The translations under genes were made by a program, and so were the position numbers. From a virus: 64,000 bases of DNA. Where the stretch lies: IMG/VR virus record IMGVR_UViG_3300045988_184127; one strand, 5' to 3'. Under the pieces are notes generated by a model. That model was not told the DNA's origin and searched no databases. It saw nothing but the letters and a program-made list of their open reading frames with translations. Shown one piece after another: positions 18,858 to 60,182 of this stretch (positions within the stretch are counted from its first letter, which is position 1; every line of letters starts with the position of its first letter).

Positions 18858-19280
18858 TGTTTTTCTCCTCCCACAATTCTTTCTAACATAATTATATCAT
18901 ATTTTACAGATGGACGGGCCAAAATCGCAACTTTGTTCATGAATACTTAACCTTTATGCACGAGATTTATTGTTGCCCTAATATATAAAACTAGAGCCCC
19001 GTCATCTTGGATGGGGCTCTTGAGTTGTAGCTGGAGGTGTATCTCATTTTGTGCCAGGGGTATTGTATGGTAGTTTTCGAAAATGAGTGCAAAAAAACAA
19101 ACACCAGAAGTCAAACTCAAAAATATCTTAGTCTTGGCAAGTTTACCCTTGCGCCGCTGTGCGAACCTCATAAAATAGAAATTGTACAAGAGAAACGGCA
19201 AGTGACGTTCATCGCGATTGTAGTTGGTTGCCACGAATCGATGCCGTGTCTGCTTGCGCATAATTACCTCTTTTCGAAGC

Positions 19281-19315
19281 CCACAGGTCATTCTCTCACC
19301 TGTGGGTTTTGTTTA
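19281..19315 (+). terminator. rho-independent terminator
   Basis: cccacaggtcattctctcacctgtggg hairpin + ttttgttt. Confidence 0.6.
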
Positions 19316-19343
19316 TTGCGGAATCGTGCGAATTGCAGACAAT
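19316..19343 (+). promoter_or_regulatory. conserved-module promoter P1
   Basis: TTGCGG-16 nt (aatcGTGCGAATTGca)-GACAAT, then AATTAAAG. Confidence 0.55.
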
Positions 19344-27379: not shown

Positions 27380-27571
27380 TCGTTCTATATAAACCGTCTG
27401 GCGGTATCTAACTGATTAACACTAAAAACAAAGAGCCGTGGTTGGAGCCTTTCCGAAACCGTCTTGCGGTAGGAGGTTTAAACCAATCCACAGCACCTTG
27501 TCTATTGTAGCATTTTGTCCTTGGAGAGGGACTTTAATAACTACTACTTTATAATACGAGGAGTATCTTGC
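27380..27571 (+). ncRNA. candidate omega-RNA region for IscB
   Basis: ~190-nt non-coding stretch immediately upstream of iscB containing imperfect repeats accgtctggcggta / accgtcttgcggta; omega-RNAs are known to lie 5-prime of iscB. Confidence 0.3.
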
Positions 27572-28924
27572 ATGAGCACTTGCGTTTGTGTTCTCAGCAA
27601 CAGTGGTGAACGCTTAATGCCTACCATCCGTCTTGGCAAGGTACGCCGACTCTTGAAAGACGGAAAAGCAAAAATCGTTAAGCATCATCCTTTTACTATT
27701 CAACTGCTGTATGACAGCAAAACGAACACACAACCCATCGAAATCTGCGAAGACGTGGGCTACAACTACATCGGCATCAGCGTAAAAAGCGAATCCCACG
27801 AATATGTGTCTGCCCAGTATGATACATTACAGGATGAGAAAGCCTGCCACGACAGTTGTCGTAAGTTGCGCCGAACCCGCAGAAATAGACTGCGCTACCG
27901 TAAACCGCGCTTCGATAACCGCAAGCGCGGCGAAGGTTGGCTTGCTCCTTCTTTGAGGCATAAGAAAGAACTCAATGTCAACGTTGTCAAGATGTATTGT
28001 GCAGTAATGCCCATTACTCATGCAACGGTTGAGGTTGGTTCTTTTGATACGATGCTTGTAAAAGCAATTCAGGAGGGAAAAGCCATTCCTGAGGGAGCAG
28101 ACTACCAGAAAGGTCCCCGCTACAACTTGGCAACTTCGCGTGAGGCAGTGTTCTACCGTGATAATTACACCTGCCAAGTTTGTGGACGCAAAGTTGCGGA
28201 TGGTGCCATTTTACATATGCACCACATGTTCTACTGGAAAGGAAGACACGGCGACAGCCTGAACGAACTTCTAACGGTATGCGAAAAGTGCCATACACCT
28301 GCCAATCACCAAAAAAGCGGTAAGCTTTATGGCTTCGGAGAAAATGTAAAGTTTGCCGACCTTTCCGGTGCGGCTTTTATGAACACCGTTAGGTGGCAAA
28401 TTGTCAATGAACTCTACGCTGCTTTTGGAAAAGATTTTGTCACCATCACTTATGGCGCAATGACAAAAGAAAAGCGCATTGCGCTTCAACTTGAGAAAAC
28501 CCACAGCAATGATGCGTATGCAATGGGCGAGTTTCATCCAAACTGCCGCTGTACGTTTGAACATTATGAAAAGGTAAGGCGTAATAATCGCATCCTTGAA
28601 AAGTTTTATGATTCTCGCTACATTGACATTCGTACAGGAGAAATAGCTACTGGAAAAGAACTCTTCAACGGTAGAATTAACCGTAACCACAAAAAGGATT
28701 CGGAAAATTTGCACAGATACCGTGGCAAGAGGACATACGCAGGGCATCGCGCTCTATTACGCAAAAAGGTAAACCTTAATCCGGGTGATTTAGTCTCTCT
28801 CAACGGAGAAGTTCTCGTTGTGCATAGCACTCATACCAATAAAAAGGGTGCTGTAAATGTAGAATTCAAAACACCCGGAAAAGCGGTCAAAAATCTGCAA
28901 GCCTTAAAAAACTTAAAATTGTAA
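27572..28924 (+). CDS. iscB: IscB OMEGA RNA-guided nuclease (PLMP-RuvC-bridge helix-HNH-RuvC-TID)
   Basis: N-terminal SGERLMPTIRLGKVRRLLKDGKAKIVKHHPFTIQL (PLMP domain), ICEDVGYNYIGISV (RuvC-I), RKLRRTRRNRLRYRKPRFDNRKRGEGWLAPS (Arg-rich bridge helix), CQVCG...LHMHHM...CEKCH (HNH), HSNDAYAMG (RuvC-III). Confidence 0.8.
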   Translation: MSTCVCVLSNSGERLMPTIRLGKVRRLLKDGKAKIVKHHPFTIQLLYDSKTNTQPIEICEDVGYNYIGISVKSESHEYVSAQYDTLQDEKACHDSCRKLRRTRRNRLRYRKPRFDNRKRGEGWLAPSLRHKKELNVNVVKMYCAVMPITHATVEVGSFDTMLVKAIQEGKAIPEGADYQKGPRYNLATSREAVFYRDNYTCQVCGRKVADGAILHMHHMFYWKGRHGDSLNELLTVCEKCHTPANHQKSGKLYGFGENVKFADLSGAAFMNTVRWQIVNELYAAFGKDFVTITYGAMTKEKRIALQLEKTHSNDAYAMGEFHPNCRCTFEHYEKVRRNNRILEKFYDSRYIDIRTGEIATGKELFNGRINRNHKKDSENLHRYRGKRTYAGHRALLRKKVNLNPGDLVSLNGEVLVVHSTHTNKKGAVNVEFKTPGKAVKNLQALKNLKL

Positions 28925-29837: not shown

Positions 29838-30434
29838 ATGAGCTATGAACCCATTATCACACCGGGCAGGAATTTCTTTCTTGTCTCGACGGAGTACAAA
29901 GAGAGCTGCTCTGCCTGGTGCCGCAAGCAAATTAGAGCGACACTGAGGACCTGTCAGGGACGAGTCATCATCATTGATGCAACGGGCGAGTACGCGGACT
30001 TGGCGCTTGAACATGACAGATTGATTCGAGAGAAAATCCCGTCCATCATTTATCGGTATAAGCTGGTGGACGGGAAACCGTATATTGCTCATGTCATTGA
30101 AGTTGATACGGAAGCAAATGAAGCACCGCACCTGATTGTATACGATATCAGCCGGACCATAATCACCAGCTGGAAGGTCGGCGTAGAGGCAATTGATAAA
30201 ATCCTGCAATCCTATGCCGTGATGCGGGACAGTGAAATCGCGTGGTTGTATGTTCCGCTGGACTTATATACCAATGTCAAGCCTGAAACCGAATCCTGGA
30301 ACATTCTGGAACGAACTATCAAGGGTAATGAAGGCAAGCTCATGACAGTACTGACGACTCGCAAATTCACCATTGGGATGGTCCAGCGCTGTTTGCATAT
30401 GACAAAAAATAAACTTTTGGAGGATAGCAAATGA
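29838..30434 (+). CDS. hypothetical protein
   Basis: 198 aa ORF 40 nt downstream of P4. Confidence 0.4.
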   Translation: MSYEPIITPGRNFFLVSTEYKESCSAWCRKQIRATLRTCQGRVIIIDATGEYADLALEHDRLIREKIPSIIYRYKLVDGKPYIAHVIEVDTEANEAPHLIVYDISRTIITSWKVGVEAIDKILQSYAVMRDSEIAWLYVPLDLYTNVKPETESWNILERTIKGNEGKLMTVLTTRKFTIGMVQRCLHMTKNKLLEDSK

Positions 30435-31318
30435 CCAATGAACAGCTGAGAATCGCATTGACGGCGAATGCCGTTACCAAACAAACCCGAAACCATTTTG
30501 GATTCAGTGACCCGTGTGGAAAAACGCTAGAAGAATACAACAAGTCCGCGATGCTGTGCTGCATGACAGCGGCGCAGAGAATGAACACGCCGGGTTTTGA
30601 GCGTGTTTTGGCTGCGCAGATTTTTCCCTGCTTTACCATTGGCTGCTGGAATCAGACGAAGACGGTCTATGATTTTGACTACGAGTTTCAGAAAATGCTG
30701 ATGGATACGGATGACGTGGCAATTCATCAGGATATCCTGCAGCGACTCCCGGTTCGTGATTTCTTTATCCCGGTGTATGACAGCTACGACTACAACGGTA
30801 TGTTCGTGCATGTGGAATTCGACGAAAAAGAGAAAACCACAGCTTTCGGTATCGTTCTTGTCGGCCCCACTAAGGGCAGCCACGATGATTTCACGTTCCT
30901 GACTCTGCCTGCCTGGGCCAAAGAAAACCAGAGTTTGACGGAAGCAACCCGGAGTACGAAAGAATACCTGGAAAAGGCAGCAGGGCAGCGGCAAGTAAAT
31001 GGTATCAGCGTACCGGCTGTGATGGAAGCAGTTCCTTCGGTCTTTGACGGCGGCACACCTTATGTCCGGCTGGCAATCCTGTGCGCCAACTATCTTGCCA
31101 GCAAGAACCCAGATGTCCGCCTTGAAACTTCCAAAAAGCGTGACCGCCCGGTATTCGTGTTTCAGGGAAAGGCACAGCGAATCAACGTCAAGACATATAC
31201 CGTTGGTGAGAATGCGGCCAAAGAATACAAAAAGAATGGGGAAGGCAAAACCCCCCGCTGGCGGCATTACTGGTGCGGCAATGGCCGGGAACGCCGGGAA
31301 TGCAAGTTTATTTACTGA
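30431..31318 (+). CDS. hypothetical protein
   Basis: 295 aa ORF, 4-nt overlap with upstream gene. Confidence 0.4.
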   Translation: MTNEQLRIALTANAVTKQTRNHFGFSDPCGKTLEEYNKSAMLCCMTAAQRMNTPGFERVLAAQIFPCFTIGCWNQTKTVYDFDYEFQKMLMDTDDVAIHQDILQRLPVRDFFIPVYDSYDYNGMFVHVEFDEKEKTTAFGIVLVGPTKGSHDDFTFLTLPAWAKENQSLTEATRSTKEYLEKAAGQRQVNGISVPAVMEAVPSVFDGGTPYVRLAILCANYLASKNPDVRLETSKKRDRPVFVFQGKAQRINVKTYTVGENAAKEYKKNGEGKTPRWRHYWCGNGRERRECKFIY

Positions 31319-31336
31319 TGGCGGTGAGGGTGAATC

Positions 31337-32044
31337 ATGGCTCCCCATACTTATCAGGACCCGATTGGGTTCTATGAATGGTTCGATGACCTTCCTTATG
31401 CTATCCAGGATAGTATTCTGAAACACCTGCCGCATATGGAAGGCGAGGAATGGCTCATTGTCATTATCCTTGCAGCTCTTCTTCTGATGATTCTGGTTTC
31501 AGCGTATCTGGGCTTTGCAAGACATAATGTCAAAAAAACGAGTGAACGACTCAACGCTTTGAAAGAGCTGAACAACACGACTGAATTCATGCCGGTCGAG
31601 GCGCAGTACCGCTACTATCTACGTTCTGATACGAAGCTGGAATACGAGGAGTTCTCGCTCCCGAAATTCTTCCGCCGCGAAGTGAGAGAAAACTTTAAGC
31701 TGTTCAACACTCTTCTTGGCAATGCTCGGGCAAACACGGTATTGTATGAAACATACGGCCGCGAAATCCAGGAACTCCCGGATTGGACAGAATCGGATGA
31801 CGATTGCGGGCGGCATATCCCGTTCTTTCTCTACCACAACATCGAGAAAGAGTTGTACGATGAAACTGTCCTGGACTGCCCTGTAACGAGCCCTGAGTTT
31901 GTCTGTACGAAAAGCTATCTGCCCAAAGATGCCAAAGAGCCGATTGAGACGGAAGAAACCTATACACTGGAGGAACTGGAAGAGTACATACGCCGCTTGA
32001 AGGTTGCAGCCGATGTCAAGAAGAACAGCCAGAACGCAGGCTGA
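31337..32044 (+). CDS. hypothetical membrane-anchored protein
   Basis: 235 aa, one TM segment (LIVIILAALLLMILVSAYLGF). Confidence 0.4.
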   Translation: MAPHTYQDPIGFYEWFDDLPYAIQDSILKHLPHMEGEEWLIVIILAALLLMILVSAYLGFARHNVKKTSERLNALKELNNTTEFMPVEAQYRYYLRSDTKLEYEEFSLPKFFRREVRENFKLFNTLLGNARANTVLYETYGREIQELPDWTESDDDCGRHIPFFLYHNIEKELYDETVLDCPVTSPEFVCTKSYLPKDAKEPIETEETYTLEELEEYIRRLKVAADVKKNSQNAG

Positions 32045-32239
32045 AAAAAAGTCAGCAGCCATAAGCAAGAGGCAGGGCCCTGTGTTTCATGGTTCCAGAA
32101 CGTCTTCCCACCTTAATTTTACCAGTACTTTGATATTTTGTGGCCATTGACAAACGGCGCAAAAGGTGCTTGGGTTAAAAGCCCTTGCAAAAAAGTGCAA
32201 TATCCATATAATAAGAAATCCAAAAGGGAGATACACATT

Positions 32240-32848
32240 ATGAGTGAACAGAAAGAAAATGCTCAGCTCGAAGCTTATCGGAAGCTCGTTGAAGATTTCA
32301 AGCGCTTCGTCAGTTCTGAAATTCGGGCAGAAGAGAACAGCTACAGGATTGTGGACATGACTTCCGAAGATGCCGAAATCGATGACCCGAGCGTTCCGGT
32401 GACTCAACTGGAGGACGAAAAAGCAGAGAAGCTTGCCGGTATTTGCATGGACCTGTCCAATGCCACGCTGTGGCTCTACTACAACCGTGACAAATTTGCA
32501 AACGTCGAGTTTATGCCCCTGACTGATGAAACTCTGAAAGAATACCAGAAGCAGGCTCAGAATGCTCTGAATGAACCGAAGAGCCCTCTGTATCTGAAAT
32601 CCTGGTATCAGCTCATTGAAATGTTGAGTCAGGAATGTATCCCGCAGCGCTACGAGGACGACGGTCAGCGATATACAGACGTCTATGTGAACACCTATAT
32701 GCTCATGTACCTGACCATGACCCGACTCAAGAACGGCGGAACCTTTACACGCCTTGCAAACGGGCAGGGAAGCGATGCTGTGAAAATCACGACCATCGCA
32801 ATGTACTACTTCTCCAGCCTTTTGACGGTTCTCTGCACTGAATATTAA
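32240..32848 (+). CDS. hypothetical protein
   Basis: Start at MSEQKEN with AAAAGGGAG RBS (track ORF begins earlier at 32138). Confidence 0.4.
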   Translation: MSEQKENAQLEAYRKLVEDFKRFVSSEIRAEENSYRIVDMTSEDAEIDDPSVPVTQLEDEKAEKLAGICMDLSNATLWLYYNRDKFANVEFMPLTDETLKEYQKQAQNALNEPKSPLYLKSWYQLIEMLSQECIPQRYEDDGQRYTDVYVNTYMLMYLTMTRLKNGGTFTRLANGQGSDAVKITTIAMYYFSSLLTVLCTEY

Positions 32849-32856
32849 GAAATTTT

Positions 32857-32897
32857 TTCCCGTGTGAGCAGCGACGCTCATGCGGGAATTTTTTTGT
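32857..32897 (+). terminator. rho-independent terminator
   Basis: tcccgtgtgagcagcgacgctcatgcggga + atttttttg. Confidence 0.5.
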
Positions 32898-32906
32898 AAT
32901 TTTCTA

Positions 32907-32934
32907 TTGTCAATCTGTGCGAATTGCGTACAAT
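32907..32934 (+). promoter_or_regulatory. conserved-module promoter P5
   Basis: TTGTCA-16 nt (atCTGTGCGAATTGcg)-TACAAT. Confidence 0.6.
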
Positions 32935-32966
32935 GAAAAATATAAACCAAAAATATATCTTATCGT

Positions 32967-33003
32967 TGTCCCGCATGAGTTGTTTGTGCGGGACTTTTTT
33001 GTT
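32967..33003 (+). terminator. intrinsic terminator inside 5-prime leader of P5 transcript (attenuator or sRNA 3-prime end)
   Basis: gtcccgcatgagttgtttgtgcgggac + ttttttg located ~35 nt after TSS and 20 nt before ATG 33023. Confidence 0.55.
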
Positions 33004-33022
33004 TGCGGAAAGGAAATGCACT

Positions 33023-33220
33023 ATGTACGGTTTATCAGAAGAAAGCTTAACGATTGTTGGTGTTATTTTGATTGTGGTTGGTGTCGCTATGATTGGTTGG
33101 GGATTTGAATGGAATCAGGACATTACCAATGATAAACGGGTCGGAACCGTTGTCAGAGACATTGGCGTTATGGTTTTGGCAACCGGCATTATATTTGTGA
33201 TGCAGCGGGCAATGAACTAA
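33023..33220 (+). CDS. small two-TM membrane protein
   Basis: MYGLSEESLTIVGVILIVVGVAMIGWGFEW...; GGAAAGGAA RBS. Confidence 0.45.
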   Translation: MYGLSEESLTIVGVILIVVGVAMIGWGFEWNQDITNDKRVGTVVRDIGVMVLATGIIFVMQRAMN

Positions 33221-33231
33221 ATTGAGAAAAA

Positions 33232-33265
33232 GTAAGGCAGGCACATTTCGGGCCTGCTTGTTTTT
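33232..33265 (+). terminator. rho-independent terminator
   Basis: aggcaggcacatttcgggcctgctt + gttttttgg. Confidence 0.6.
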
Positions 33266-33275
33266 TGGGTGAAAT

Positions 33276-35471
33276 ATGATTACAACAAAGAAGATTGACC
33301 CACGGCCATATCAGCAGAAAGCTGCTGCGGCGATTCATAGAGAGTGGGATGCCGGGAATAAGAAAACGCTGGTTGTGATGCCGACCGGAACCGGCAAAAC
33401 TATTGTGTTTGCAAGCATCGTGAACGACCAGGTGGCAAAGGGTGAACACGTTTTGATTCTTGCGCACCGGGAAGAGCTTTTACAGCAGGCAAGCGACAAG
33501 CTCAAGATGGTGACGGGGCTAGAGACCGCGTTAGAGAAAGCGCAAAGCTCGGCGCTCGATTCCGATAAGATGGTCGTGGTTGCCAGTGTTCAGACTCTCT
33601 CTAAGCAGAATCGGTTAATGAAGTATCCGCGTGATTATTTCGGGACTATCATCATTGATGAAGCGCATCACACGGCAGCCAAAACTTACAAGGGAATTCT
33701 CGAGCATTTCATCGATGCCAAAGTGTTGGGCGTGACCGCAACACCCGACCGAAGCGACATGAAATCCCTATCTGATATCTTTGATAGTCTTGCATTTGAA
33801 TATAAGCTCCCGGATGCAATTCGGGAAGGATATCTCTGCAAAATTAACACGAAGACAATTCCGGTCGAGGTAGACATCAGCAAGGTTCATATCAATGCCG
33901 GTGATTTCAGTGCTCAGGACCTCGGCAATGTTCTTGACCTGTATCTGGACACGATTGCGGATGCCATTGTGCGAGAATGCCAGAACCGAAAGACTGTCAT
34001 CTTTACGCCTCTGGTACGAATCAGCAAAAGACTGTGTAATATCCTCAATAAGCGAAACTTCAAGACCGCAGAAGTCAACGGCGCGTCTGCGGACCGGAAG
34101 GACGTTCTGAAAGGGTTTGACAATGGCGAGTACAAGGCGCTGACGAACGCGATGCTCCTGACGGAAGGCTGGGATTGCCCGACCGTTGACTGTATCATCT
34201 GCTTGCGTCCTACCAAGAGCCGTAGCCTGTATGCGCAGATTGTGGGACGCGGAACACGCCTATGTGAAGGGAAAAAGAATCTTCTCGTGCTGGATTTCCT
34301 GTGGCTGACAAAGAAACATAGTCTTTGCCATCCTGCTGATATTTTCTGTGAAGACCCGGAAGTGGCACAAAAGACCACCGATATGCTGGCGGATGCGGCA
34401 CTCACCGGTTCGAATAGCCAGGAGAATTTCGGGAGTCCCGAATTGGGGCTGATTGAGGCAATCGAGGAAGCACAGACTGAGCTGGACGAGGAAAAGCGGA
34501 AAGCACTGTGTGAACTCGAAAAGCAGGATACGATTCAGCGCAAGCTCAAGGCACAGCGTCAAAAGCCGAGAGGATTGGTTGACCCGCTGCAGTACATTTT
34601 CAGCATCGAAGCGCCGGAACTCAACGATTATCAGCCGATGTTTGAGAGTGAGAGGCAGGAGCCTTCCGATGACATCATCGATAGTATTTCGTGCTACGGC
34701 GTAAAAGGGGATGCCATCAAATCTCAGGGCCTTGCCGCTGCAATTCTCAAACGACTCATTGCTCGCAGAGCCAGCGGAATGGCTACCCCGAAACAGATTC
34801 GGTGTCTTGAAAGTTTTGGGTTCGTCCATGTTGGGCGCTGGACATTGCGCTATGCAAGCAGCTTTTTGGACATCATCAGTTCTCATGACTGGAAACTTCC
34901 GAATGGGTTCGACGCATCCACGCTGGACCCGGAAAAGAATACGGCAGAAGACCTCGCCAAGCTGTATCCAGACTACAAGGAAGATGAGACGAAGAAAGCA
35001 CCGCGTGGGGATGCTTTCATCTGCTGCTACTACGATGCAAGCTACAATTTGGCTCGCAAGAAGGTCTGCAACAGTGAAAAAGAAATGTTGAATCTGTATT
35101 ATTCACTGTTCAATACTTGCGAAGCAAAGTACTTCTATTATACGAAGGAAGCTGATGCCTGGATGGCAGAAAAGCAGAATCTAATTGCCAGAAAGACTGG
35201 AACACCGATTCCTGCCACGCAGGCGACAAAGACAGTGCCAACGGCACCACCTCCCTTTGTCCCGGCAGCTCCCGCCAAGAGCCACGAATATTATTGCTGC
35301 CTTGCACGCTGGGACGGGTCTTATATCGGCTATGAAACTTACAAGAGTGAGCAGGCGGCACAGAATGCCCGAAAGCAGATTGCCCGGCGCGGTGAGACGG
35401 CAGTGTATGCCACGGTAGAGGAAGCCGAAGCGTGGGTCGAACGGCAAAAGGCAGCGAGAACCAGGAGGTAA
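33276..35471 (+). CDS. SF2 DEAD/DEAH-box-type helicase (ResIII-like N-terminal core) with long C-terminal extension
   Basis: RPYQQKAA...VVMPTGTGKT (motif I), IIIDEAHH (motif II), VLGVTATP (motif III), QIVGRGTR (motif VI); 731 aa. Confidence 0.75.
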   Translation: MITTKKIDPRPYQQKAAAAIHREWDAGNKKTLVVMPTGTGKTIVFASIVNDQVAKGEHVLILAHREELLQQASDKLKMVTGLETALEKAQSSALDSDKMVVVASVQTLSKQNRLMKYPRDYFGTIIIDEAHHTAAKTYKGILEHFIDAKVLGVTATPDRSDMKSLSDIFDSLAFEYKLPDAIREGYLCKINTKTIPVEVDISKVHINAGDFSAQDLGNVLDLYLDTIADAIVRECQNRKTVIFTPLVRISKRLCNILNKRNFKTAEVNGASADRKDVLKGFDNGEYKALTNAMLLTEGWDCPTVDCIICLRPTKSRSLYAQIVGRGTRLCEGKKNLLVLDFLWLTKKHSLCHPADIFCEDPEVAQKTTDMLADAALTGSNSQENFGSPELGLIEAIEEAQTELDEEKRKALCELEKQDTIQRKLKAQRQKPRGLVDPLQYIFSIEAPELNDYQPMFESERQEPSDDIIDSISCYGVKGDAIKSQGLAAAILKRLIARRASGMATPKQIRCLESFGFVHVGRWTLRYASSFLDIISSHDWKLPNGFDASTLDPEKNTAEDLAKLYPDYKEDETKKAPRGDAFICCYYDASYNLARKKVCNSEKEMLNLYYSLFNTCEAKYFYYTKEADAWMAEKQNLIARKTGTPIPATQATKTVPTAPPPFVPAAPAKSHEYYCCLARWDGSYIGYETYKSEQAAQNARKQIARRGETAVYATVEEAEAWVERQKAARTRR

Positions 35472-35475
35472 TCAT

Positions 35476-36030
35476 ATGCGTACCAATAAGACAGTAAGCC
35501 ATATTTACTACGAACTCGACCATGATGTGCAGGAATATGCGAAACGGCTTTTGGCTAAAAAGATTCTGCACGCGGCACAGCAGGACAATGCCGTTCCGTT
35601 TCCTGATGAAACGGCAAAGAGAATTGCCGAGACGGCGGTGTTTCTGACCGAACGCCTCACGCTTTTGTATGAGCTGAATTCTGGATTCCGAGGCATTCGG
35701 TTCAGCGATTCCGGGAAACAACCCGCTGTTTATACTACCATGGTTCAGCGCAATGCTCCTTTGTACGATGAGCCGATGCTTGGGCGGGCCTACAACCTCG
35801 CCAGCTTCCTTGCCGCTGAAAGTCCCGATATCAGAGAAGTGGTTTTGATGAAGCATGGGGTTTTGGCGGCAATTTATAATGCTGCTGCGCACATGAAAGA
35901 GCGGACTCCGGAGCCGGGAAAAATCTCGGTTCAGAGCCAGCTGTTTGTGTCTACGGCAGTTGAGTTGTTTGATGGTCTTTTGAGTACAGCAGTAGAGAAA
36001 AAGAACAGCGGCAATAAAACCGCCGCATGA
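35476..36030 (+). CDS. hypothetical protein
   Basis: 184 aa ORF 4 nt after helicase stop. Confidence 0.4.
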   Translation: MRTNKTVSHIYYELDHDVQEYAKRLLAKKILHAAQQDNAVPFPDETAKRIAETAVFLTERLTLLYELNSGFRGIRFSDSGKQPAVYTTMVQRNAPLYDEPMLGRAYNLASFLAAESPDIREVVLMKHGVLAAIYNAAAHMKERTPEPGKISVQSQLFVSTAVELFDGLLSTAVEKKNSGNKTAA

Positions 36031-36051
36031 GATAGAGAATAGGAGATTCGT

Positions 36052-36504
36052 ATGATTCGATTCAGAAAAGATACCCCTCGCTACTGGTTTATGAGTAACT
36101 ATTATTCTTGCGAATTTGTGATGAATGGGATTCGTTACAAGAATGCCGAAGCAGCGTTTCAGAGCCACAAGGTTCCGCTGGAAGAGCGCAAACAATTTTC
36201 AGACATGCCTCCGGCAACGGCTAAGCATTTTGGCCGTCATGTGGCTTTCCCTGCCAACTGGGACGAAACCCGGGACGATGTAATGCGCCGCGTGGTGATG
36301 GCTAAATTCGAACAGAATAAAGACCTCAAGCAGCGTCTCCTCGAAACGGGAACGCAGCCAATCGAGGAAGATACCACCAGTTGGCACGATAACTACTGGG
36401 GAAACTGCCATTGCCCGAAATGCCGGAACATCCCGGGTCAGAACCGGCTTGGGATTATTCTGATGGAAACGAGGGACAAGCTAAAAAAACAAACGAGTAA
36501 ATAA
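36052..36504 (+). CDS. NADAR-domain protein (YbiA-like, DUF1768; ADP-ribose/NAD-processing hydrolase family)
   Basis: FSNYY..C.F..NG..Y...E..FQ..K......RK.F.......AK..GR......W.......M...V.AKF.QN..L...LL.TG...IEE....D.YWG pattern of NADAR domain. Confidence 0.7.
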   Translation: MIRFRKDTPRYWFMSNYYSCEFVMNGIRYKNAEAAFQSHKVPLEERKQFSDMPPATAKHFGRHVAFPANWDETRDDVMRRVVMAKFEQNKDLKQRLLETGTQPIEEDTTSWHDNYWGNCHCPKCRNIPGQNRLGIILMETRDKLKKQTSK

Positions 36505-36535
36505 TATTTGCGAGTCATTTCCTTTTTTAAGACAA

Positions 36536-36572
36536 AAGGCTGCCGCCCATCACGGGTAGCAGCCTTCTTTTT
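36536..36572. terminator. bidirectional rho-independent terminator
   Basis: aaggctgccgcccatcacgggtagcagcctt + ctttttttg between convergent genes. Confidence 0.65.
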
Positions 36573-36576
36573 TTGT

Positions 36577-37029
36577 TTAGTGGGTGTCGTGGCACACATG
36601 CTCGAAATCGACGAGCAGCTCATTTGCTGCCTTTTGCACACATGCTATGGCCGGTTCATCCTTGACTTTTTCAGGTAAAAGGATAAGGCACGGACGGTTA
36701 ATATCAGTTGAGCTGCTATAGTGGCAGGAGAGCAACTCTTCTCCAAATTCGTGATTAAGGGCGGAGGCAAGACATTTACCGAGCAAAGCACAATCCTCAT
36801 CTTTCGCCAAAAGCCTATCCGCCTCATCGTAGTTAATGCGGCCGTTATCGAGACATATACGGTCAAGAAATGCACGAACAGAAGCAGATGCGCTCATGGC
36901 ATCTATAGTCTGACGATGATTCTCAAGAAAAATGCAAAATATCGGCTTTTCGATTTCATCCAAGTAAAAGCCAAGGCCGGTAATACGGGTATTGGTATCG
37001 GTTTGTGTCATAGGAAACACCTCATCCAT
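36577..37029 (-). CDS. hypothetical protein
   Basis: 150 aa ORF on minus strand, co-oriented with next gene. Confidence 0.4.
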   Translation of the reverse strand: MDEVFPMTQTDTNTRITGLGFYLDEIEKPIFCIFLENHRQTIDAMSASASVRAFLDRICLDNGRINYDEADRLLAKDEDCALLGKCLASALNHEFGEELLSCHYSSSTDINRPCLILLPEKVKDEPAIACVQKAANELLVDFEHVCHDTH

Positions 37030-37065
37030 TATGGCAGCGAATCACCTTGCCGCATTCAGAACAAC

Positions 37066-38952
37066 TCACTGAACAACTTCGCCAAGGTCATTTGCGTATT
37101 TCGGGTCACACATCATGAAATAGTTGACGGGGCCGTACTCCAGACCGAGCTCCTGCGCGTATGCCTTGATAGCTTCCAGAACGTCCTCTCTCTTGAGGCC
37201 AAACTTGGAATGCAGACGGGCAAACTCTTTGTCAGAGACAGAAACGCAAGAGCAATTTTCTGCATCGGTTTCTTTGCTGCCCAGCATCCCGTCAAAGATG
37301 TCCTGCCCTGCACAGAGAATCGTCTCATTGTTCATCGCATAGGCGATAACGGAAGCCTTACAGTCAAAGTCGCTGTTTTCCACAAGGAAATCCTCAGGGC
37401 GGCCGTGACGTTCAACAACGTTTTCATAGATGTCCCGGAGTTCGATAGGAGCAGAAGGAGCGGTCAGAGCTGCTTTATGAAGGCGCATGAATTCCACAAA
37501 CTTTTCATTCGAGAGGGTATCGGTATAAAAGCCGATGCCGGAAACGCGAACCTTCACTTCGCTGGCAAAGTAATCGTCAATTTTGGAAACGATTTTCTGC
37601 TGGACCCGCTTGTATGCTTCCTGAACATTGGAAGCCGTGTAAAATACCGGGAACTTCATGATGTCGATTCCCTCCGGCAGACTCGCGTCATAGGCCGCAT
37701 CAATGCCGCCCCGCAGCGCCGGAACTGCGTCATGCAGCTCTTTCACAGAAGAAATGTATCCGGTAATGTACAGCTCATCGTTTTTGCTGTAATGCCCGAT
37801 AAGTCCCACATAGAGGGTCTGCATCAGCATCCGCTTGAAGCTGAACCAACAAAGACGAATAGGTAGAATGACATTAGCAGCCGTACCTTCCGCACGATAG
37901 GTGCCGGGGGCAGAGACCTTTTCCAGCAGAATCTGGTCATTCTTGTCGCCGTATTTTTCCTTGAAAAGAGCTTGAAGAATTTCAGTGGACGAAAGAGGAG
38001 TGGACATTGGAATCGTTTCATTCAGAAAAGAGAGGAATGCATCCACATTGTCTTTCTGCCATGCGTCATCAGACATGCTTGCACGCTGCATAGAGAGCTT
38101 GTCTTTCCCGTCGTCAGGCAAGGGCTCATACCCGCAGGCGATACGAAGCTCGTTCTCCGTGACAGCATCCGTTGCGCTTGCAATTTTCTTGATGGTATTT
38201 TCGGTCGGCTGAGCTTTTGCGTTGCCATTCACGAGGCTGCTGATATACCCACGAGTCAGTCCTGCCTGAAACGCAAACTTACCCTGTGTTCGGGTTCCGA
38301 TGGCTTTTTTGACCAGCGATGCCAGCCTTTGAAAGTCGGGCTCTTTGGGAAAGGTGGCCTCCGTATCCTTATTGCTGTTCTTTTCAAGTACCGACTTGTC
38401 CCAACCGGTGACAAGAGAATACCCAATATCCTTCAAGGATTGATAGGCAACCCCGTTCTGGTCAAGAGCCGGGGAGTATGTACCGCTGTTATCTTCCAGC
38501 TGCTCTACTGCGTCACGCACCATCCTTGCTTCGTTCATCAGGATGACGTCCGGGGCTTCAAGCCGGGCAAGACTCTTGTACCGATTATTGAGGCGCTCGA
38601 CTCGTGCGGCCAATGCAGTGATGTTGGCAACTTGGTCTTCCGTTGCATGGGCAGAGATATCTGCACCAAGTTCAAAATGGTTCAGTGCAGGAATATCCAC
38701 GCCTTTGCTCTTGGCGAATTCCACAATGGCTTCCGCGCCATAGAAACGCTTCTCATGGGCTGCGACAACTTTCGTTATCGTGTCGGCCGAGTTGTCCAGC
38801 TCAAGCACTTCACCTTTTCCGGCACCCTCGACATAACACCTGGCGTTGGTGAGAAAGCCTTTCAAAAAATCAGCATCCACATCCAGCTTCTTAGCGATGC
38901 CGGGCAGCTGCTTATAGAAAATCACGGGCGTGGCGAGGTTAACAGAAATCAT
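37066..38952 (-). CDS. large hypothetical protein with central XRE-like helix-turn-helix
   Basis: 628 aa; segment QRLASLVKKAIGTRTQGKFAFQAGLTRGYISSLVNG resembles HTH_XRE DNA-binding motif. Confidence 0.45.
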   Translation of the reverse strand: MISVNLATPVIFYKQLPGIAKKLDVDADFLKGFLTNARCYVEGAGKGEVLELDNSADTITKVVAAHEKRFYGAEAIVEFAKSKGVDIPALNHFELGADISAHATEDQVANITALAARVERLNNRYKSLARLEAPDVILMNEARMVRDAVEQLEDNSGTYSPALDQNGVAYQSLKDIGYSLVTGWDKSVLEKNSNKDTEATFPKEPDFQRLASLVKKAIGTRTQGKFAFQAGLTRGYISSLVNGNAKAQPTENTIKKIASATDAVTENELRIACGYEPLPDDGKDKLSMQRASMSDDAWQKDNVDAFLSFLNETIPMSTPLSSTEILQALFKEKYGDKNDQILLEKVSAPGTYRAEGTAANVILPIRLCWFSFKRMLMQTLYVGLIGHYSKNDELYITGYISSVKELHDAVPALRGGIDAAYDASLPEGIDIMKFPVFYTASNVQEAYKRVQQKIVSKIDDYFASEVKVRVSGIGFYTDTLSNEKFVEFMRLHKAALTAPSAPIELRDIYENVVERHGRPEDFLVENSDFDCKASVIAYAMNNETILCAGQDIFDGMLGSKETDAENCSCVSVSDKEFARLHSKFGLKREDVLEAIKAYAQELGLEYGPVNYFMMCDPKYANDLGEVVQ

Positions 38953-39166
38953 GGTGTACTCCTTTCAGATGTGTCATTTGCTGTATAATAATGTCATCTT
39001 CTGTAATTATAATAGCACATCTCACGCCAAAAAGCAAGCATGAATTTACAATAAATGACAATAAAACACACAAGATGACATATTTGAGCAAAGCAATTGA
39101 TTCTTGAGCTTTCCGGCTTGGTGACGGAACAAGCTCTATGCGCCTTGTCTTTACCACAGTTTTGCC

Positions 39167-39194
39167 TTGTGCATCCGTGCAAATTAAATACAAT
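39167..39194 (+). promoter_or_regulatory. conserved-module promoter P6 (diverged spacer)
   Basis: TTGTGC-16 nt (atCCGTGCAAATTAaa)-TACAAT then TAAAGATG. Confidence 0.5.
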
Positions 39195-39243
39195 TAAAGA
39201 TGTCGAAAGATAAAGCACAACACACAAAAAAGGAAATTTCACT

Positions 39244-39564
39244 ATGAACACCAGTATTTTGAAACTCAAAGCCACTGTAATCCGCCCCAAAGACGATGAT
39301 GAACTTGACGGCCTTGCCGCATCCATCAGCTTTCCCGTCGAATGCGATGATGAAGCAATTGGCGAGGCTCTGGGCGACCATGACCTGATGGCCTATGTTG
39401 TCGGAGAGCTACACGACCTCGTTGTCCGAATGCGTCCCGAATGGCTGGATAATGAGGATACTAGCCTGACCATCAAGGCATTCCTGGACGAAGCTGAGTA
39501 CCAGACGTTCAAGGGCCTTGTCGCGATGAAAGAAGACAGCTACACCTTTGTTATTGAGGGCTAA
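39244..39564 (+). CDS. small acidic hypothetical protein
   Basis: 106 aa, AAAAAGGAAA RBS. Confidence 0.4.
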   Translation: MNTSILKLKATVIRPKDDDELDGLAASISFPVECDDEAIGEALGDHDLMAYVVGELHDLVVRMRPEWLDNEDTSLTIKAFLDEAEYQTFKGLVAMKEDSYTFVIEG

Positions 39565-39599
39565 ACACCACAGAGCAAAAAGCAAACCAAGCCTGCAGT

Positions 39600-39685
39600 A
39601 AAATGCGGGTAGGACTTTTTTGTTTGCGTAGCTGCATCCTTTTGTCCGCAGAAACCGTAGGTGCCAGGATGCGTAGCTGCCGATG
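39600..39685. repeat. second cluster of GCGTAGCTGC x2 / ACCGTAGG motifs
   Basis: gtttGCGTAGCTGCatcc...gaaACCGTAGGtgccaggatGCGTAGCTGCcg; same cores as 1741-1985 cluster. Confidence 0.55.
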
Positions 39686-39689
39686 TGTC

Positions 39690-39717
39690 TTGACCCGGCG
39701 TGCGAATCTCATACAAT
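39690..39717 (+). promoter_or_regulatory. conserved-module promoter P7
   Basis: TTGACC-16 nt (cggcGTGCGAATCTca)-TACAAT. Confidence 0.55.
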
Positions 39718-39723
39718 CAAATC

Positions 39724-39800
39724 TGTACGAAAGATACTATGCACACAATAGAATTCACACTAAGCTGCTCAGTGGCCTTATGGCTATTGGGTAGCTTTTT
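39724..39800 (+). ncRNA. candidate short transcript/leader from P7 ending in weak terminator
   Basis: ~80 nt containing AGATACTA and GAATTCACA motifs shared with P12/P13 leaders; ends gggtagctttttctttt just before P8. Confidence 0.3.
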
Positions 39801-39823
39801 CTTTTGTGCGAACTGCGTACAAT
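39795..39823 (+). promoter_or_regulatory. conserved-module promoter P8 (weak -35)
   Basis: cttttt-17 nt (cttTTGTGCGAACTGcg)-TACAAT, 24 nt upstream of ATG 39847. Confidence 0.45.
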
Positions 39824-39846
39824 AAAAATCAGACGGAGGAACAACT

Positions 39847-40254
39847 ATGAAAAAATTTATTGGGACTGCTCTGGTGCTGTGCTGCCTGGCTCTACCTTTG
39901 GCTGGCTGTGAGGACGCAATCAGCACTGTGACAAGTACCACAATGTCTGAACTCGAAGATATCCCGAACCAGATATTGGCCACACCGGAAAGTGCTGAAA
40001 CGGAACCGGAATACAATTACATTCATTTTCGTTACGACAACATCTGGACTGTATCTGCCCTCGTGAACTACGAAATCGTAGACAACGGCCAAAACATAAA
40101 ATTTGAAATCAACGATAGTCGTTATCGAGACAAGGTTTTTTATACCAGCATGTCGAATGTAGAGCTCGTATACCGAGACGATAGCGTTGATTATCGCACG
40201 GGCTATGCGGTTTATCCGGGGGATGCCTCGAAGCTTGGAAAAGGTGGTAAGTGA
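39847..40254 (+). CDS. lipoprotein
   Basis: MKKFIGTALVLCCLALPLAGCED lipobox; 135 aa. Confidence 0.55.
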   Translation: MKKFIGTALVLCCLALPLAGCEDAISTVTSTTMSELEDIPNQILATPESAETEPEYNYIHFRYDNIWTVSALVNYEIVDNGQNIKFEINDSRYRDKVFYTSMSNVELVYRDDSVDYRTGYAVYPGDASKLGKGGK

Positions 40255-40255
40255 G

Positions 40256-40732: not shown

Positions 40733-40737
40733 TAGCA

Positions 40738-40790
40738 ATAAGACCTTTACCGAAATTCGGTAAGGGTCTTTCTTTTTTTGTAGGGATGCA
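40738..40790 (+). terminator. rho-independent terminator
   Basis: agacctttaccgaaattcggtaagggtct + ttctttttttg. Confidence 0.65.
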
Positions 40791-40890
40791 AATATGTACA
40801 GATTGCAAACAAATGGCACCTGCCGTTGCAGAAAAAGCACGATAGTGGGATAATATTAGTAAAGAAACAACAACATCATCAGTAAAGTGA

Positions 40891-41910: not shown

Positions 41911-41970
41911 TTGACATGCTATCAGCAACAAAATACTGCTCGTCCATTTGAATATGGGCAGCAATTTTTG

Positions 41971-41998
41971 TTGCAAAACCGTGCGAATTGAAGATAAT
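41971..41998 (+). promoter_or_regulatory. conserved-module promoter P9
   Basis: TTGCAA-16 nt (aaCCGTGCGAATTGaa)-GATAAT. Confidence 0.55.
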
Positions 41999-42003: not shown

Positions 42004-42190
42004 TGAAGTTAACGGAAGCAAAGGTGATGCCGATGCAGTAAAAAATATAAATAGTGCAAGATTGAAATGTCACAAAGGACGGCCGACCTGTTACCGGCTA
42101 CCGGTTGAAATAGCAGTCCTTGAGGCTGCGTAAGATTATAAAGAACTCCTATTACTTTTTTGAGTAGTGGGGGTTCTTTTTTCCTCTAAA
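42004..42190 (+). ncRNA. candidate ~180-nt non-coding transcript from P9 upstream of cas operon, containing CRISPR-repeat-tail-like motifs and ending in intrinsic terminator
   Basis: Contains gcaaGATTGAAAT (~42056-42068), hairpin ACCGGctaCCGGT followed by TGAAAT (~42093-42111), GCGTAAGATTAT (~42128), and terminator cctattacttttttgagtagtggggg + ttcttttttcc (U-G wobble stem); the 61-aa track ORF here is not credible. Confidence 0.35.
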
Positions 42191-45042: not shown

Positions 45043-45044
45043 CA

Positions 45045-46304: not shown

Positions 46305-46332
46305 TTGCACATCTGTGCGAATCAGATATAAT
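46305..46332 (+). promoter_or_regulatory. conserved-module promoter P11
   Basis: TTGCAC-16 nt (atCTGTGCGAATCAga)-TATAAT. Confidence 0.55.
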
Positions 46333-46415
46333 AACCCTAATAAGATAAGAATTATGCCCTGACGGCATCTGAATTGGATGCTGCCGGGGCATTTTTGTTG
46401 TTAGGAGATATAGCT

Positions 46416-58693: not shown

Positions 58694-58721
58694 TTGCCAA
58701 AATATACGAACGCCGTACAAT
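58694..58721 (+). promoter_or_regulatory. conserved-geometry promoter P13 (diverged spacer)
   Basis: TTGCCA-16 nt (aaatatACGAACGCCg)-TACAAT. Confidence 0.45.
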
Positions 58722-58767
58722 GTAAAGTGTGAACAGATACTAAGCAATCAGTAGGATTCACAATCTG

Positions 58768-58810
58768 TATTTTAAGCGGACTTATCCCATAGCGGGGTAG
58801 GTCCGCTTTT
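58768..58810 (+). terminator. intrinsic terminator within P13 leader, 20 nt upstream of MBL lipoprotein gene
   Basis: agcggacttatcccatagcggggtaggtccgct + ttttttg; leader also carries AGATACTA and GGATTCACA motifs. Confidence 0.55.
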
Positions 58811-58831
58811 TTTGTTGAAAGGAGAAAAAGT

Positions 58832-59992: not shown

Positions 59993-60020
59993 AAATTGCA
60001 CCTGATTTACTCGACAAGCT

Positions 60021-60048
60021 GTGCGAACTGACTACAATAAAAAATGTA
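60021..60048 (+). promoter_or_regulatory. conserved-module promoter P12
   Basis: TCGACA-16 nt (agCTGTGCGAACTGac)-TACAAT. Confidence 0.55.
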
Positions 60049-60107
60049 CGATAGATAACAAACATCGAAAAAGGCATTCTGCCTTTCGTACAATTCACAA
60101 TTCTGCA

Positions 60108-60147
60108 GACATAAGGCAGACTCACCGTCTTGGTGGGCCTGCCTTTT
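60108..60147 (+). terminator. intrinsic terminator inside P12 leader (attenuator or sRNA end)
   Basis: aggcagactcaccgtcttggtgggcctgcc + ttttttg, ~35 nt upstream of ATG 60183; leader also has small hairpin aaaggcattctgccttt and CAATTCACA motif. Confidence 0.55.
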
Positions 60148-60182
60148 TTGTTTGCGCAACTATAAAAAAGGAGTATAACGCA

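What the first reader, a model, noticed from the sequence alone, without database searches (positions are those of the whole stretch)
32907..33022. Recurrent architecture of conserved promoter, 60-180 nt leader, intrinsic terminator, then gene (five instances): attenuators/antitermination targets or sRNAs
P5 (terminator 32967-33003, gene at 33023), P12 (terminator 60108-60147, gene at 60183), P13 (terminator 58768-58810, gene at 58832), P7 (leader ends ~39800 before P8) and P9 (terminator ~42150-42190 before P10) all place a strong GC hairpin plus U-tract between the TSS and the first gene. The P7, P12 and P13 leaders share AGATACTA and (G/A)ATTCACA motifs. Inference: expression of the downstream genes would need read-through. 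Candidate mechanisms are processive antitermination by a LoaP/NusG-like, Q-like or N-like factor, or a riboswitch-like leader. Otherwise the short transcripts are sRNAs.
Basis: partly seen in the sequence, partly recalled or inferred. Interest (0 to 1): 0.6.

Follow-up and report, generated by a model that had tools for sequence, protein, structure and literature searches.

The report
Terminators placed just after phage promoters
A family of large gut phage-like elements puts a strong transcription stop signal right behind about half of its conserved promoters, often after a previously undescribed folded RNA, so many genes are probably expressed only when that stop is overridden.

Summary
The window has about 14 plus-strand copies of one promoter (TTGC-N6-GTGCGAAyTGnn-TACAAT; 17 hits against 1.7 expected).

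The same promoter occurs in 107 IMG/VR viral stretches. There, about 100 of 165 distinct promoter instances carry such a terminator. In 67 of 93, a ribosome-binding site and start codon follow within about 35 nt, which leaves no room for another promoter.

Terminator stems show compensatory changes across lineages. Terminated leaders share a -10-like TAnnAT just after the start site. P7, P12 and P13 belong to a leader RNA family absent from Rfam, with more than 50 variants: a three-way junction, then AATTCACAATT, then the terminator.

Best reading (about 0.5): factor-dependent antitermination cassettes, with cis elements that resemble lambda Q/pR'-tR'. No antiterminator gene was found in the window.

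P9 is more likely a crRNA-like RNA gene for the adjacent Cas3-less type I-C module. P1, P7 and P9 are followed by a second promoter and could be stand-alone small RNAs.

Verdict: new variant of a known kind, interest about 0.65.

The parts
19149..19176 (+). P1: conserved promoter (TTGCGC-N-GTGCGAACCTCATAAAAT)
19184..19316 (+). P1 short transcript of about 130 nt. It starts ATTGTACAAG and ends in hairpin 19280-19306 plus T-tract, and is followed by promoter 19326.
   Evidence: It is 99.5% identical in L022. A convergent minus-strand promoter-like site lies at 19234-19217.
32857..32895 (+). Terminator of the upstream gene, in front of P5
32907..32934 (+). P5: conserved promoter
32941..33000 (+). 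P5 leader (AATATAAACC...) with terminator hairpin 32968-32994 plus T6
   Evidence: It is present in at least 17 related loci. The L016/L046/L061 variants are 85% identical and carry a compensatory stem change, gtcccgca/tgcgggac to gccccgca/tgcggggc.
33023..33220 (+). Small membrane-protein gene reachable only through the P5 leader terminator
33235..33266 (+). Second intrinsic terminator, with no promoter behind it, directly before the ResIII helicase gene at 33276-35471
39690..39717 (+). P7: conserved promoter
39724..39807 (+). P7 leader, short form of class A. It has TGTACGAAAGATACTA at 39724-39739, AATTCACA at 39752-39759, and terminator 39762-39797 plus T-tract. The T-tract overlaps the -35 position of P8 (39806-39823).
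41971..41998 (+). P9: conserved promoter
42005..42185 (+). P9 transcript, probably a crRNA-like RNA gene and not an attenuator. It has ATTGAAAT at about 42061-42068 and GTTGAAAT at about 42104-42111, then GCGTAAGATTAT, then terminator 42140-42179.
   Evidence: (z-score -3.8). A paralogous unit lies behind cas7 at 46022-46270.
46305..46332 (+).
46339..46396 (+). P11 leader (TAATAAGATAAG...) with terminator 46355-46391 plus T5. The UvrD-like helicase start codon follows at 46416.
   Evidence: 15 stem pairs, 7 of them with compensatory changes across three lineages
58694..58721 (+). P13: conserved promoter
58729..58815 (+). P13 leader, short form of class A. It has GTGAACAGATACTA, GATTCACAAT at 58755-58764, and terminator 58774-58808 plus T7. 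The metallo-beta-lactamase-fold lipoprotein gene starts at 58832.
60011..60038 (+). P12: conserved promoter
60045..60149 (+). P12 leader, long form of class A. P1 pairs GTACG (60046-60050) with CGTAC (60087-60091). The conserved stretch is ATAGATAACA. The P3 hairpin is AAAGGCA-ttc-TGCCTTT. AATTCACAATT lies at 60092-60102. Terminator 60115-60143 plus T6 follows, and the gene starts at 60183.

Best explanation
The window comes from a family of large elements that IMG/VR lists as viral. They are known from gut metagenomes and reach about 250 kb. Their accessory or early genes are organised as cassettes, each driven by the same sigma-A-type promoter.

About half of the cassettes carry a promoter-proximal intrinsic terminator 40-110 nt downstream of the start site. 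I propose these are conditional stops. By default, host RNA polymerase makes only a short leader RNA. An element-encoded factor, not yet identified, makes the polymerase terminator-resistant. It would be recruited either at a sigma-dependent pause caused by the -10-like TA(C/A)(G/A)AT element at about +2 to +7, or through the leader RNA itself. Cassettes with a terminator would then be switched on together, later than cassettes without one.

Shown by sequence:
- the promoters;
- the terminators, their conservation and covariation;
- the lack of space for any other promoter;
- the association between the initial-transcribed-region motif and the presence of a terminator;
- the folded leader class.

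Inferred:
- that termination is efficient;
- that read-through is regulated;
- that a factor exists;
- that the motif acts as a pause element.
For: 1. The architecture recurs far beyond chance: 7 of 14 promoters in the window and about 100 of 165 distinct promoters in 107 related viral stretches.
2. In 67 of 93 terminated leaders, a ribosome-binding site and start codon follow at a median of 35 nt from the start of the T-tract, with no promoter in between. In the window, the genes at 33023, 46416, 58832 and 60183 have no other promoter.
3. The terminator is under selection. UvrD-like helicase orthologues that are only 65-77% identical in protein keep promoter, leader and hairpin. Of 15 stem pairs, 7 show compensatory changes. 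The P5 stem also shows a compensatory change.
4. The terminator is not simply the upstream gene's terminator displaced. 48 of 100 terminated-leader promoters also have a terminator within 120 nt upstream, as P5 does at 32857-32888.
5. Terminated leaders share TA at nucleotides 9-10 after the -10 hexamer, with T at the sixth position. Instance counts are 76 of 93 against 13 of 72 (Fisher 8e-17). Counts by independent leader cluster are 13 of 20 against 1 of 22 (p = 4e-5). The promoter upstream of the start site is the same in both groups. Lambdoid Q needs exactly such a -10-like sequence in the initial transcribed region, plus a DNA element between -35 and -10 (PMC6606751). These promoters carry a conserved TGTGCGAA in that spacer.
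6. Further intergenic terminators without a following consensus promoter lie at 33235, 40740, 50126, 55033 and 62411. This fits processive read-through.
7. Class-A leaders precede functionally unrelated genes. That fits a general timing device and not a metabolite sensor.
Against: - No antiterminator homologue (Q, N, NusG/LoaP, sigma-like) was found among about 65 window ORFs searched in Pfam or PHROGs. The rest of the genome was not available.
- The conserved spacer motif is present in promoters with and without terminators, so it does not mark a terminator-specific loading site.
- 7 of 20 terminated leader clusters lack the TA motif.
- The motif could be conserved by common descent of the cassettes, or could act as RNA.
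- Sigma-dependent pausing coupled to antitermination is established, to my knowledge, only for lambdoid phages of Proteobacteria.
- No transcript data exist, so terminator efficiency and any regulation are unknown.
- 9 of 93 terminated leaders, including P1, P7 and P9 here, are followed by a second promoter. That arrangement fits stand-alone RNAs at least as well.
Confidence: 0.5

Rival explanations
1. Constitutive partial terminators in portable regulatory cassettes. All cassettes use the same strong promoter, and a leaky terminator behind it sets each gene's expression level. It also insulates cassettes from one another. The conserved promoter-leader unit would also serve as a homology patch for cassette shuffling, as proposed for PeSL motifs in T4-like phages. 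No antitermination factor is involved.
For: - The cassettes are mosaic. In L003, the P12 leader matches the window up to position 60177 and then joins 60981, which deletes the 246-aa gene exactly behind the leader. In L053, L055, L084 and L102, class-A leaders sit in front of other genes.
- The cas cassette at 40891-46007 is an insertion relative to L007.
- PeSLs are conserved promoter plus stem-loop units that flank orphan genes in the variable regions of T4-like phages. They were shown to terminate transcription and to recombine (PMC2839356, PMC4122927).
- No antiterminator gene was found.
Against: - The hairpins are long, GC-rich and followed by 5-8 T. Such terminators are usually efficient, so placing one directly behind a strong promoter would be a wasteful way to lower expression.
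- Half of the cassettes also have a conventional upstream terminator for insulation.
- This reading does not explain the specific link between the initial-transcribed-region motif and the terminators, or the conserved folded RNA of class A.
- In PeSLs the stem-loop appears to lie upstream of the promoter. I inferred this from the text.
Confidence: 0.2
2. The short terminated transcripts are the functional products: a multi-copy family of trans-acting small RNAs. This applies especially to class A, with its conserved 5' GUACGAUAGAUA and single-stranded AAUUCACAAUU as seed regions. They would act on host or phage mRNAs or titrate a protein. Downstream genes would be expressed only by incidental read-through.
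For: - Class A has the anatomy of a bacterial small RNA: its own promoter, a conserved 5' end, a conserved unpaired box, a variable middle and a strong terminator.
- It is present in many copies: at least 8 exact pattern matches on one 224-kb contig (plus 3 on a 37-kb contig of the same MAG) and 5 in the 12 kb of L105.
- P1, P7 and P9 are followed by a separate promoter for the next gene.
- P1 overlaps a convergent minus-strand promoter-like site, as antisense regulators do.
Against: - 67 of 93 terminated leaders sit within about 35 nt of a same-strand start codon that has no other promoter. This is the layout of a cis-acting leader.
- Other leader classes (P5, P11) share only the first 10-15 nt with class A, yet have the same architecture.
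- It is unlikely that about half of all promoters in the element exist to make small RNAs.
Confidence: 0.2
3. Class-A leaders are riboswitch-type or protein-dependent attenuators, in which ligand or protein binding to the three-way junction decides between terminator and anti-terminator folds.
For: - The structured element lies directly upstream of a terminator.
- There is covariation in P3: 27 of 29 distinct variants keep a hairpin stacked on P1, with several pair types at each position.
- Most variants are predicted to form a three-way junction.
Against: - In the minimum-free-energy folds, the junction and the terminator form together.
- I found no conserved segment complementary to either terminator arm in the leaders I inspected.
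- The downstream genes are unrelated in function: metallo-beta-lactamase lipoproteins, SSB-like, HD-domain, methyltransferase and many unknowns.
- There is no Rfam family.
- P1 is invariant, so it gives no covariation support, and the register of P2 varies.
Confidence: 0.07

Closest known systems
Lambdoid late promoter pR' with tR' (6S RNA) and the Q antiterminator
   Same: The promoter is followed by a short leader and a strong intrinsic terminator, and the genes behind it have no other promoter. A -10-like sequence lies in the initial transcribed region, here TA(C/A)(G/A)AT at about +2 to +7. A conserved DNA element lies between -35 and -10. The defining features are taken from PMC6606751.
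   Different: There are dozens of copies per genome instead of one, in front of accessory or early-type genes and not the late operon. The likely host is a gut Clostridia-type bacterium. No Q homologue was found. The spacer element is also present in promoters without a terminator. Part of the leaders fold into a conserved RNA, which Q does not need.
Lambda N/nut, HK022 put RNA, LoaP-dependent leaders and the pLS20 conAn system (RNA-guided processive antitermination)
   Same: A conserved RNA element transcribed just behind the promoter, followed by intrinsic terminators that must be passed. The relevant papers were seen by title and abstract only: PMC12691694, PMC13401043 and PMC8191782. The rest rests on my own knowledge of the nut and put literature.
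   Different: There is no sequence or Rfam similarity. No NusG paralogue or ConAn1-like gene was seen in the window. The terminator follows within 10-25 nt of the element. There are many copies per genome, and leader classes without the folded element have the same layout.
PeSL (promoter-early stem-loop) cassettes of T4-like phages
   Same: Conserved composite promoter plus stem-loop units flank variable orphan genes in a large phage. Cassette gain and loss has breakpoints at the units (PMC2839356, PMC4122927).
   Different: In PeSLs the stem-loop terminates transcription coming from upstream and appears to precede the promoter. Here the terminator lies downstream of the start site, inside the transcript of its own promoter.
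Type III toxin-antitoxin loci (toxIN) and pCF10 prgQ/IRS1
   Same: The order is promoter, short functional RNA, leaky or regulated terminator, gene (own knowledge).
   Different: There are no tandem antitoxin repeats and no ToxN-like genes downstream. No countertranscript is evident, except possibly at P1.

Membership tests
Q-dependent late promoter (lambdoid pR'-tR') | A -10-like sequence in the initial transcribed region that can induce a sigma-dependent pause | tested here: met
   At sequence level only. TA at nucleotides 9-10 after the -10 hexamer occurs in 76 of 93 terminated leaders against 13 of 72 non-terminated ones, and in 13 of 20 against 1 of 22 leader clusters. Pausing itself was not tested.
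Q-dependent late promoter (lambdoid pR'-tR') | A factor-binding DNA element between -35 and -10 that is specific to the regulated promoter | tested here: inconclusive
   A conserved TGTGCGAA lies in the spacer of every promoter copy, with or without a terminator. Binding cannot be tested here.
Q-dependent late promoter (lambdoid pR'-tR') | An intrinsic terminator between the promoter and genes that lack any other promoter | tested here: met
Q-dependent late promoter (lambdoid pR'-tR') | A Q-family gene in the same element | tested here: not met
   About 65 window ORFs searched in Pfam or PHROGs gave no antiterminator hit. Only 64 kb of an element that may exceed 200 kb was searched.
LoaP / NusG-paralogue-dependent leader | A NusG paralogue (NGN plus KOW domains) encoded next to or within the regulated locus | tested here: not met
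   The Pfam scans of window ORFs gave no such hit.
Any described RNA family (Rfam 15: riboswitches, leaders, small RNAs) | A covariance-model match at or near the gathering score | tested here: not met
   The window at the gathering threshold and at E<=5, and L105, L110 and L112 (10 class-A copies) at E<=1, gave nothing on the leaders. The only leader hit is a chance-level CyaR match of 26 bits at 32930-32999.
PeSL cassettes of T4-like phages | A stem-loop terminator upstream of the early promoter in one conserved intergenic unit | tested here: not met
   Here the order is promoter, leader, terminator, gene. The upstream terminators present at 48 of 100 promoters are separate elements.
CRISPR RNA of a type I-C system (applies to the P9 transcript only) | Repeats of about 32 nt ending in ATTGAAA(C/T), flanking variable spacers, next to cas genes | tested here: inconclusive
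   ATTGAAAT and GTTGAAAT lie in the P9 RNA, and GATTGAAA(A/C) occurs twice behind cas7. The remaining repeat sequence is not conserved, there is no array, and the 'spacer' is about 85% conserved in L123.

The most novel reading that the evidence does not exclude
A previously unknown antitermination regulon in large phages of gut Clostridia. Dozens of early cassettes per genome would be held off by promoter-proximal terminators and released together by a phage factor. The factor would load either at a sigma-A-dependent pause (a Q-like logic outside the lambdoid phages) or on a new three-way-junction leader RNA that acts as a nut- or put-like site.
Probability: 0.35. Interest if true: 0.8.

Novelty: new variant of a known kind. 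Interest (0 to 1): 0.65.

Why it matters
Temporal control in uncultivated large gut phages is essentially unknown. If these terminators are regulated, the layout gives a sequence-only way to split such genomes into immediate and delayed transcription classes. It would also point to a new antiterminator and a new structured RNA, with more than 50 natural variants available for structure and function work. It would extend the logic of a promoter-proximal pause followed by a terminator, which to my knowledge is established only for lambdoid phages, to phages of Gram-positive anaerobes. Even if the mechanism is wrong, the portable promoter-leader-terminator unit looks like the junction at which accessory and anti-defence cassettes are exchanged.

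Tried and rejected
- **Rfam.** I searched the window at the gathering threshold and at E<=5, and three related loci at E<=1. Nothing matched the leaders.
- **Near-identical DNA.** Megablast of 30000-45000 against the GenBank phage and PLSDB plasmid collections found no match.
- **Antiterminator gene.** Pfam and PHROGs scans of about 65 window ORFs found no NusG/LoaP, Q, N or extra sigma factor.
- **Class A as a CRISPR repeat mimic.** I rejected this. Class A occurs in many relatives that lack the cas cassette, AATTCACAATT is not the I-C handle, and no arrays exist in any locus.
- **Targets for the putative spacers of the crRNA-like units.** None were found in the fetched DNA.
- **RNAalifold on a MAFFT alignment of class A.** It recovered only the invariant P1, because MAFFT misaligned the variable hairpin. 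I counted P3 pairs with my own anchor-based script instead and did not build a covariance model.
- **Leader peptide.** ATG-TAC-GAT-AGA-TAA in P12 is not conserved as an ORF in other variants.
- **Leader terminator as the upstream gene's displaced terminator.** I rejected this because half of these promoters also have an upstream terminator.
- **The motif as an inverted repeat of the -10 hexamer (ATTGTA).** I considered this as an operator-type reading. The positions that separate terminated from non-terminated leaders lie further downstream, at nucleotides 9, 14 and 15 after the -10 hexamer, so it fits less well than a -10-like or longer motif.

Full report
**Observation**

The upstream gene ends at 32848 and has its own terminator at 32857-32888 plus T7. 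A sigma-A-type promoter follows (TTGTCA-16 nt-TACAAT, 32907-32934). Then come a short A/U-rich leader and a second hairpin (GTCCCGCA...TGCGGGAC, 32968-32994) with T6. A ribosome-binding site and the start codon at 33023 follow. The other four sites are also at the stated coordinates.

The promoters are copies of one motif, TTGC-N6-GTGCGAAyTGnn-TACAAT. The core occurs 17 times with up to 2 mismatches, against 1.68 expected, and 15 of these lie on the plus strand between 19159 and 60021.

I read the sequence downstream of each copy and ran a hairpin-plus-T-tract scan. Seven of about 14 promoters run into a terminator before the next gene or promoter. At the background density of such sites, about 0.07 per 100 nt, roughly one would be expected.

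**What the element is**

The window has no close relative in the GenBank phage or PLSDB plasmid collections. It encodes helicases, a NADAR protein, a flotillin, a vWA protein and a PLD nuclease. It also encodes an IscB-like RRXRR+HNH protein, a methyltransferase with its specificity subunit, and a Cas3-less type I-C cas5-cas8c-cas7 set. Many ORFs have no family.

An exact scan of IMG/VR with TGTGCGAAYTGNNTACAAT returned 107 stretches (80 were listed in the output, but all 107 were available for analysis). They come from viral contigs of 30-250 kb, mostly from one gut-type data set. A second scan found the class-A leader at least 8 times on one strand of a 224-kb contig, and 3 more times on a 37-kb contig, of the MAG 'Clostridiales bacterium HRGM_Genome_2451'.

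I did not see structural phage genes in the window. 'Phage' therefore rests on the IMG/VR classification.

**How general the architecture is**

The 107 stretches plus the window contain 165 distinct promoter instances. In 93 of them a hairpin (folding energy -7 kcal/mol or lower) plus T-tract lies between the -10 and the first gene. The count rises to about 100 once class-A leaders with a false gene call are corrected. The T-tract starts 39-193 nt after the -10, with clusters around 55-60, 78 and 96-113 nt.

The terminated leaders fall into 26 sequence clusters. In 67 of the 93, a ribosome-binding site and start codon follow at a median of 35 nt from the start of the T-tract, with no promoter in between. 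In 9, a second consensus promoter follows. Of the terminated-leader promoters, 48 of 100 also have a terminator within 120 nt upstream. The downstream hairpin is therefore not simply the previous gene's terminator.

**Selection on the terminators**

The UvrD-like helicase behind P11 has orthologues in three lineages that are 65-77% identical in protein. All three keep promoter, leader of about 25 nt, hairpin, T-tract and ribosome-binding site. In the alignment, 7 of 15 stem pairs show changes on both sides that keep the pair. The P5 leader is present in at least 17 loci, and the most distant variants (85% identical) carry a compensatory change in the stem.

**A motif tied to the terminators**

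The promoter upstream of the start site is the same whether or not a terminator follows. The initially transcribed region differs. Terminated leaders read nAAAATT(G/A)TA(C/A)(G/A)ATA(G/A)A(T/A)A after the -10 hexamer. The T, A and T positions of a -10-like hexamer are the ones that separate the two groups.

TA at nucleotides 9-10 occurs in 76 of 93 terminated leaders against 13 of 72 others (Fisher 8e-17). Seven of those 13 are in fact misclassified class-A leaders. I then clustered on the sequence downstream of the motif to reduce counting of relatives. By cluster, the figures are 13 of 20 against 1 of 22 (p = 4e-5).

If transcription starts at the conserved purine 8 nt after the -10, the element spans about +2 to +7.

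**The class-A leader**

P7, P12 and P13 belong to a family with more than 50 distinct variants. The long form reads as follows:
- (A)TTGTACG-ATAGATA(A/C)CA;
- a short hairpin, often TAGAT-ACC-ATCTA;
- a variable hairpin;
- CGTACAAT-TCACAATT;
- 10-20 nt of spacer;
- the terminator.

Individual folds give a three-way junction in most variants. P1 (GTACG/CGTAC) is invariant, so it gives no covariation support. The register of P2 varies. P3 is present in 27 of 29 distinct variants, always stacked on the 3' strand of P1, with three or four pair types at each of its first four positions.

P7 and P13 are short forms without P3. In these, the 5' GTGAA or the ACT/CTA pairs with the region around TTCAC.

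No Rfam family matches, in the window or in three loci that together hold ten copies. The genes behind class-A leaders are unrelated to one another.

**Mechanism**

The genes at 33023, 46416, 58832 and 60183 can be transcribed only through their leader terminators. The helicase at 33276 lies behind a second terminator (33235-33260) with no promoter. Four more intergenic terminators without a consensus promoter behind them lie at 40740, 50126, 55033 and 62411. Read-through is therefore needed.

The cis layout has three parts: a conserved element in the promoter spacer, a -10-like sequence in the initial transcribed region, and a strong terminator shortly downstream. This is the layout described for Q-dependent late promoters (PMC6606751). 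I therefore favour factor-dependent, probably processive, antitermination that separates terminator-free (immediate) cassettes from terminator-bearing (delayed) ones.

This is inference. No antiterminator gene was found in the 64 kb. The spacer element is not specific to terminated promoters. The motif could act as RNA or be inherited by descent. There are no transcript data.

The rivals are:
- constitutive leaky terminators in shuffling cassettes;
- trans-acting small RNAs;
- riboswitch-like attenuators.

The shuffling aspect is real whichever reading holds. In L003, the P12 leader matches the window up to 60177 and then joins 60981. In other loci, related class-A leaders precede different genes. 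This resembles the PeSL cassettes of T4-like phages (PMC2839356, PMC4122927), except that there the stem-loop appears to lie upstream of the promoter.

**The instances are heterogeneous**

P9 is different in kind. Its transcript of about 180 nt folds better than any of 200 shuffles (z-score -3.8). It contains ATTGAAAT and GTTGAAAT and ends in CTTGAGGCTGCGTAAGATTAT plus a terminator. A paralogous unit sits behind cas7 at 46022-46270. That unit has two GATTGAAA(A/C) sites and the same 3' motif plus terminator. The relative L123 has a comparable unit behind its cas7.

ATTGAAA(C/T) is, to my knowledge, the usual 3' end of type I-C repeats. I therefore read P9 as a crRNA-like RNA gene of the Cas3-less module. 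The 'repeats' are degenerate, however, and the body is about 85% conserved in L123.

P1, P7 and P9 are each followed by a second promoter. For these three, a stand-alone RNA is as likely as an attenuator.

**Verdict**

The most likely mechanism is regulated antitermination (0.5). The layout is a new variant of a known kind and includes a leader RNA motif that Rfam does not contain.

Noticed in passing
window 23809-23878 (+): Full-length match to the HDV-like ribozyme of Faecalibacterium prausnitzii (RF02682, 58 bits against a gathering score of 44). It lies in the gap between the vWA gene (ends 23782) and the next ORF (23902).
   Followed up: no
window 42435-46007, with 42005-42185 and 46022-46270: A Cas3-less type I-C set (Cas5d, Csd1/Cas8c, Cas7) with no CRISPR array. 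It is flanked by two crRNA-like units that contain (G)ATTGAAA(N) sites and share C(A/T)TGAGGYYGCGTAAGATTAT plus a terminator. The cassette is an insertion relative to L007. Near-identical copies occur in 5 other viral contigs, and L123 carries a 90% Cas7 relative. No target was found for the 'spacers'.
   Followed up: partly
window 27515-28924 (+); 7767-9909 (-): An IscB-like protein (RRXRR plus HNH domains), and an IS200-type TnpA next to a TnpB-like transposase. Related loci (L003 at 301, L016 at 8719) place what look like TnpB-type ORFs directly behind the conserved phage promoter. I judged these by eye from the N-terminal sequence and did not search them. No HEARO/omega-RNA hit appeared in Rfam.
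   Followed up: no
window 19159-19316 (+) and 19234-19217 (-): The P1 short transcript overlaps a convergent minus-strand copy of the promoter motif (2 mismatches). This lies at the boundary between the leftward genes (15905-18857) and the rightward gene block. It is a possible antisense or switch region.
   Followed up: no
window 60177/60981, compared with L003 3654/3672: In L003, the P12 leader is joined directly to the gene that in the window lies one cassette further on. The deletion breakpoint sits between the leader terminator and the start codon. Several other loci carry related class-A leaders in front of different genes. This points to cassette shuffling at the leader units.
   Followed up: partly
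window 33235-33266, 40740-40779, 50126-50159, 55033-55084, 62411-62444 (+): Strong intergenic terminators directly in front of same-strand genes, with no consensus promoter behind them.
   Followed up: partly
window about 19374-19388 and about 42031-42045: The P2 leader (no terminator) and the P9 transcript share GAT(A/G)CCGATGCAGTA. The meaning is unknown.
   Followed up: no
window 60045-60059: In P12, the conserved leader start reads ATG-TAC-GAT-AGA-TAA, a 4-codon ORF. Other variants have TTG or no stop codon there, so it is probably not a leader peptide.
   Followed up: partly
window 15762-15880 (+): A sub-threshold match to the trpB ncRNA motif (39 bits, gathering score 59, E = 0.06), in a region with three tandem hairpin plus T-tract sites (15745-15868).
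   Followed up: no
L005, L020, L051, L054, L072, L082, L092 (for example L005 minus strand, offset 2598 from the start of the reverse-complemented locus): In these relatives, the position occupied by the class-A P7 leader in the window, behind the conserved 106-aa gene, holds an unrelated 113-nt leader. That leader also ends in a strong terminator. The architecture is kept while the leader sequence is replaced.
   Followed up: partly
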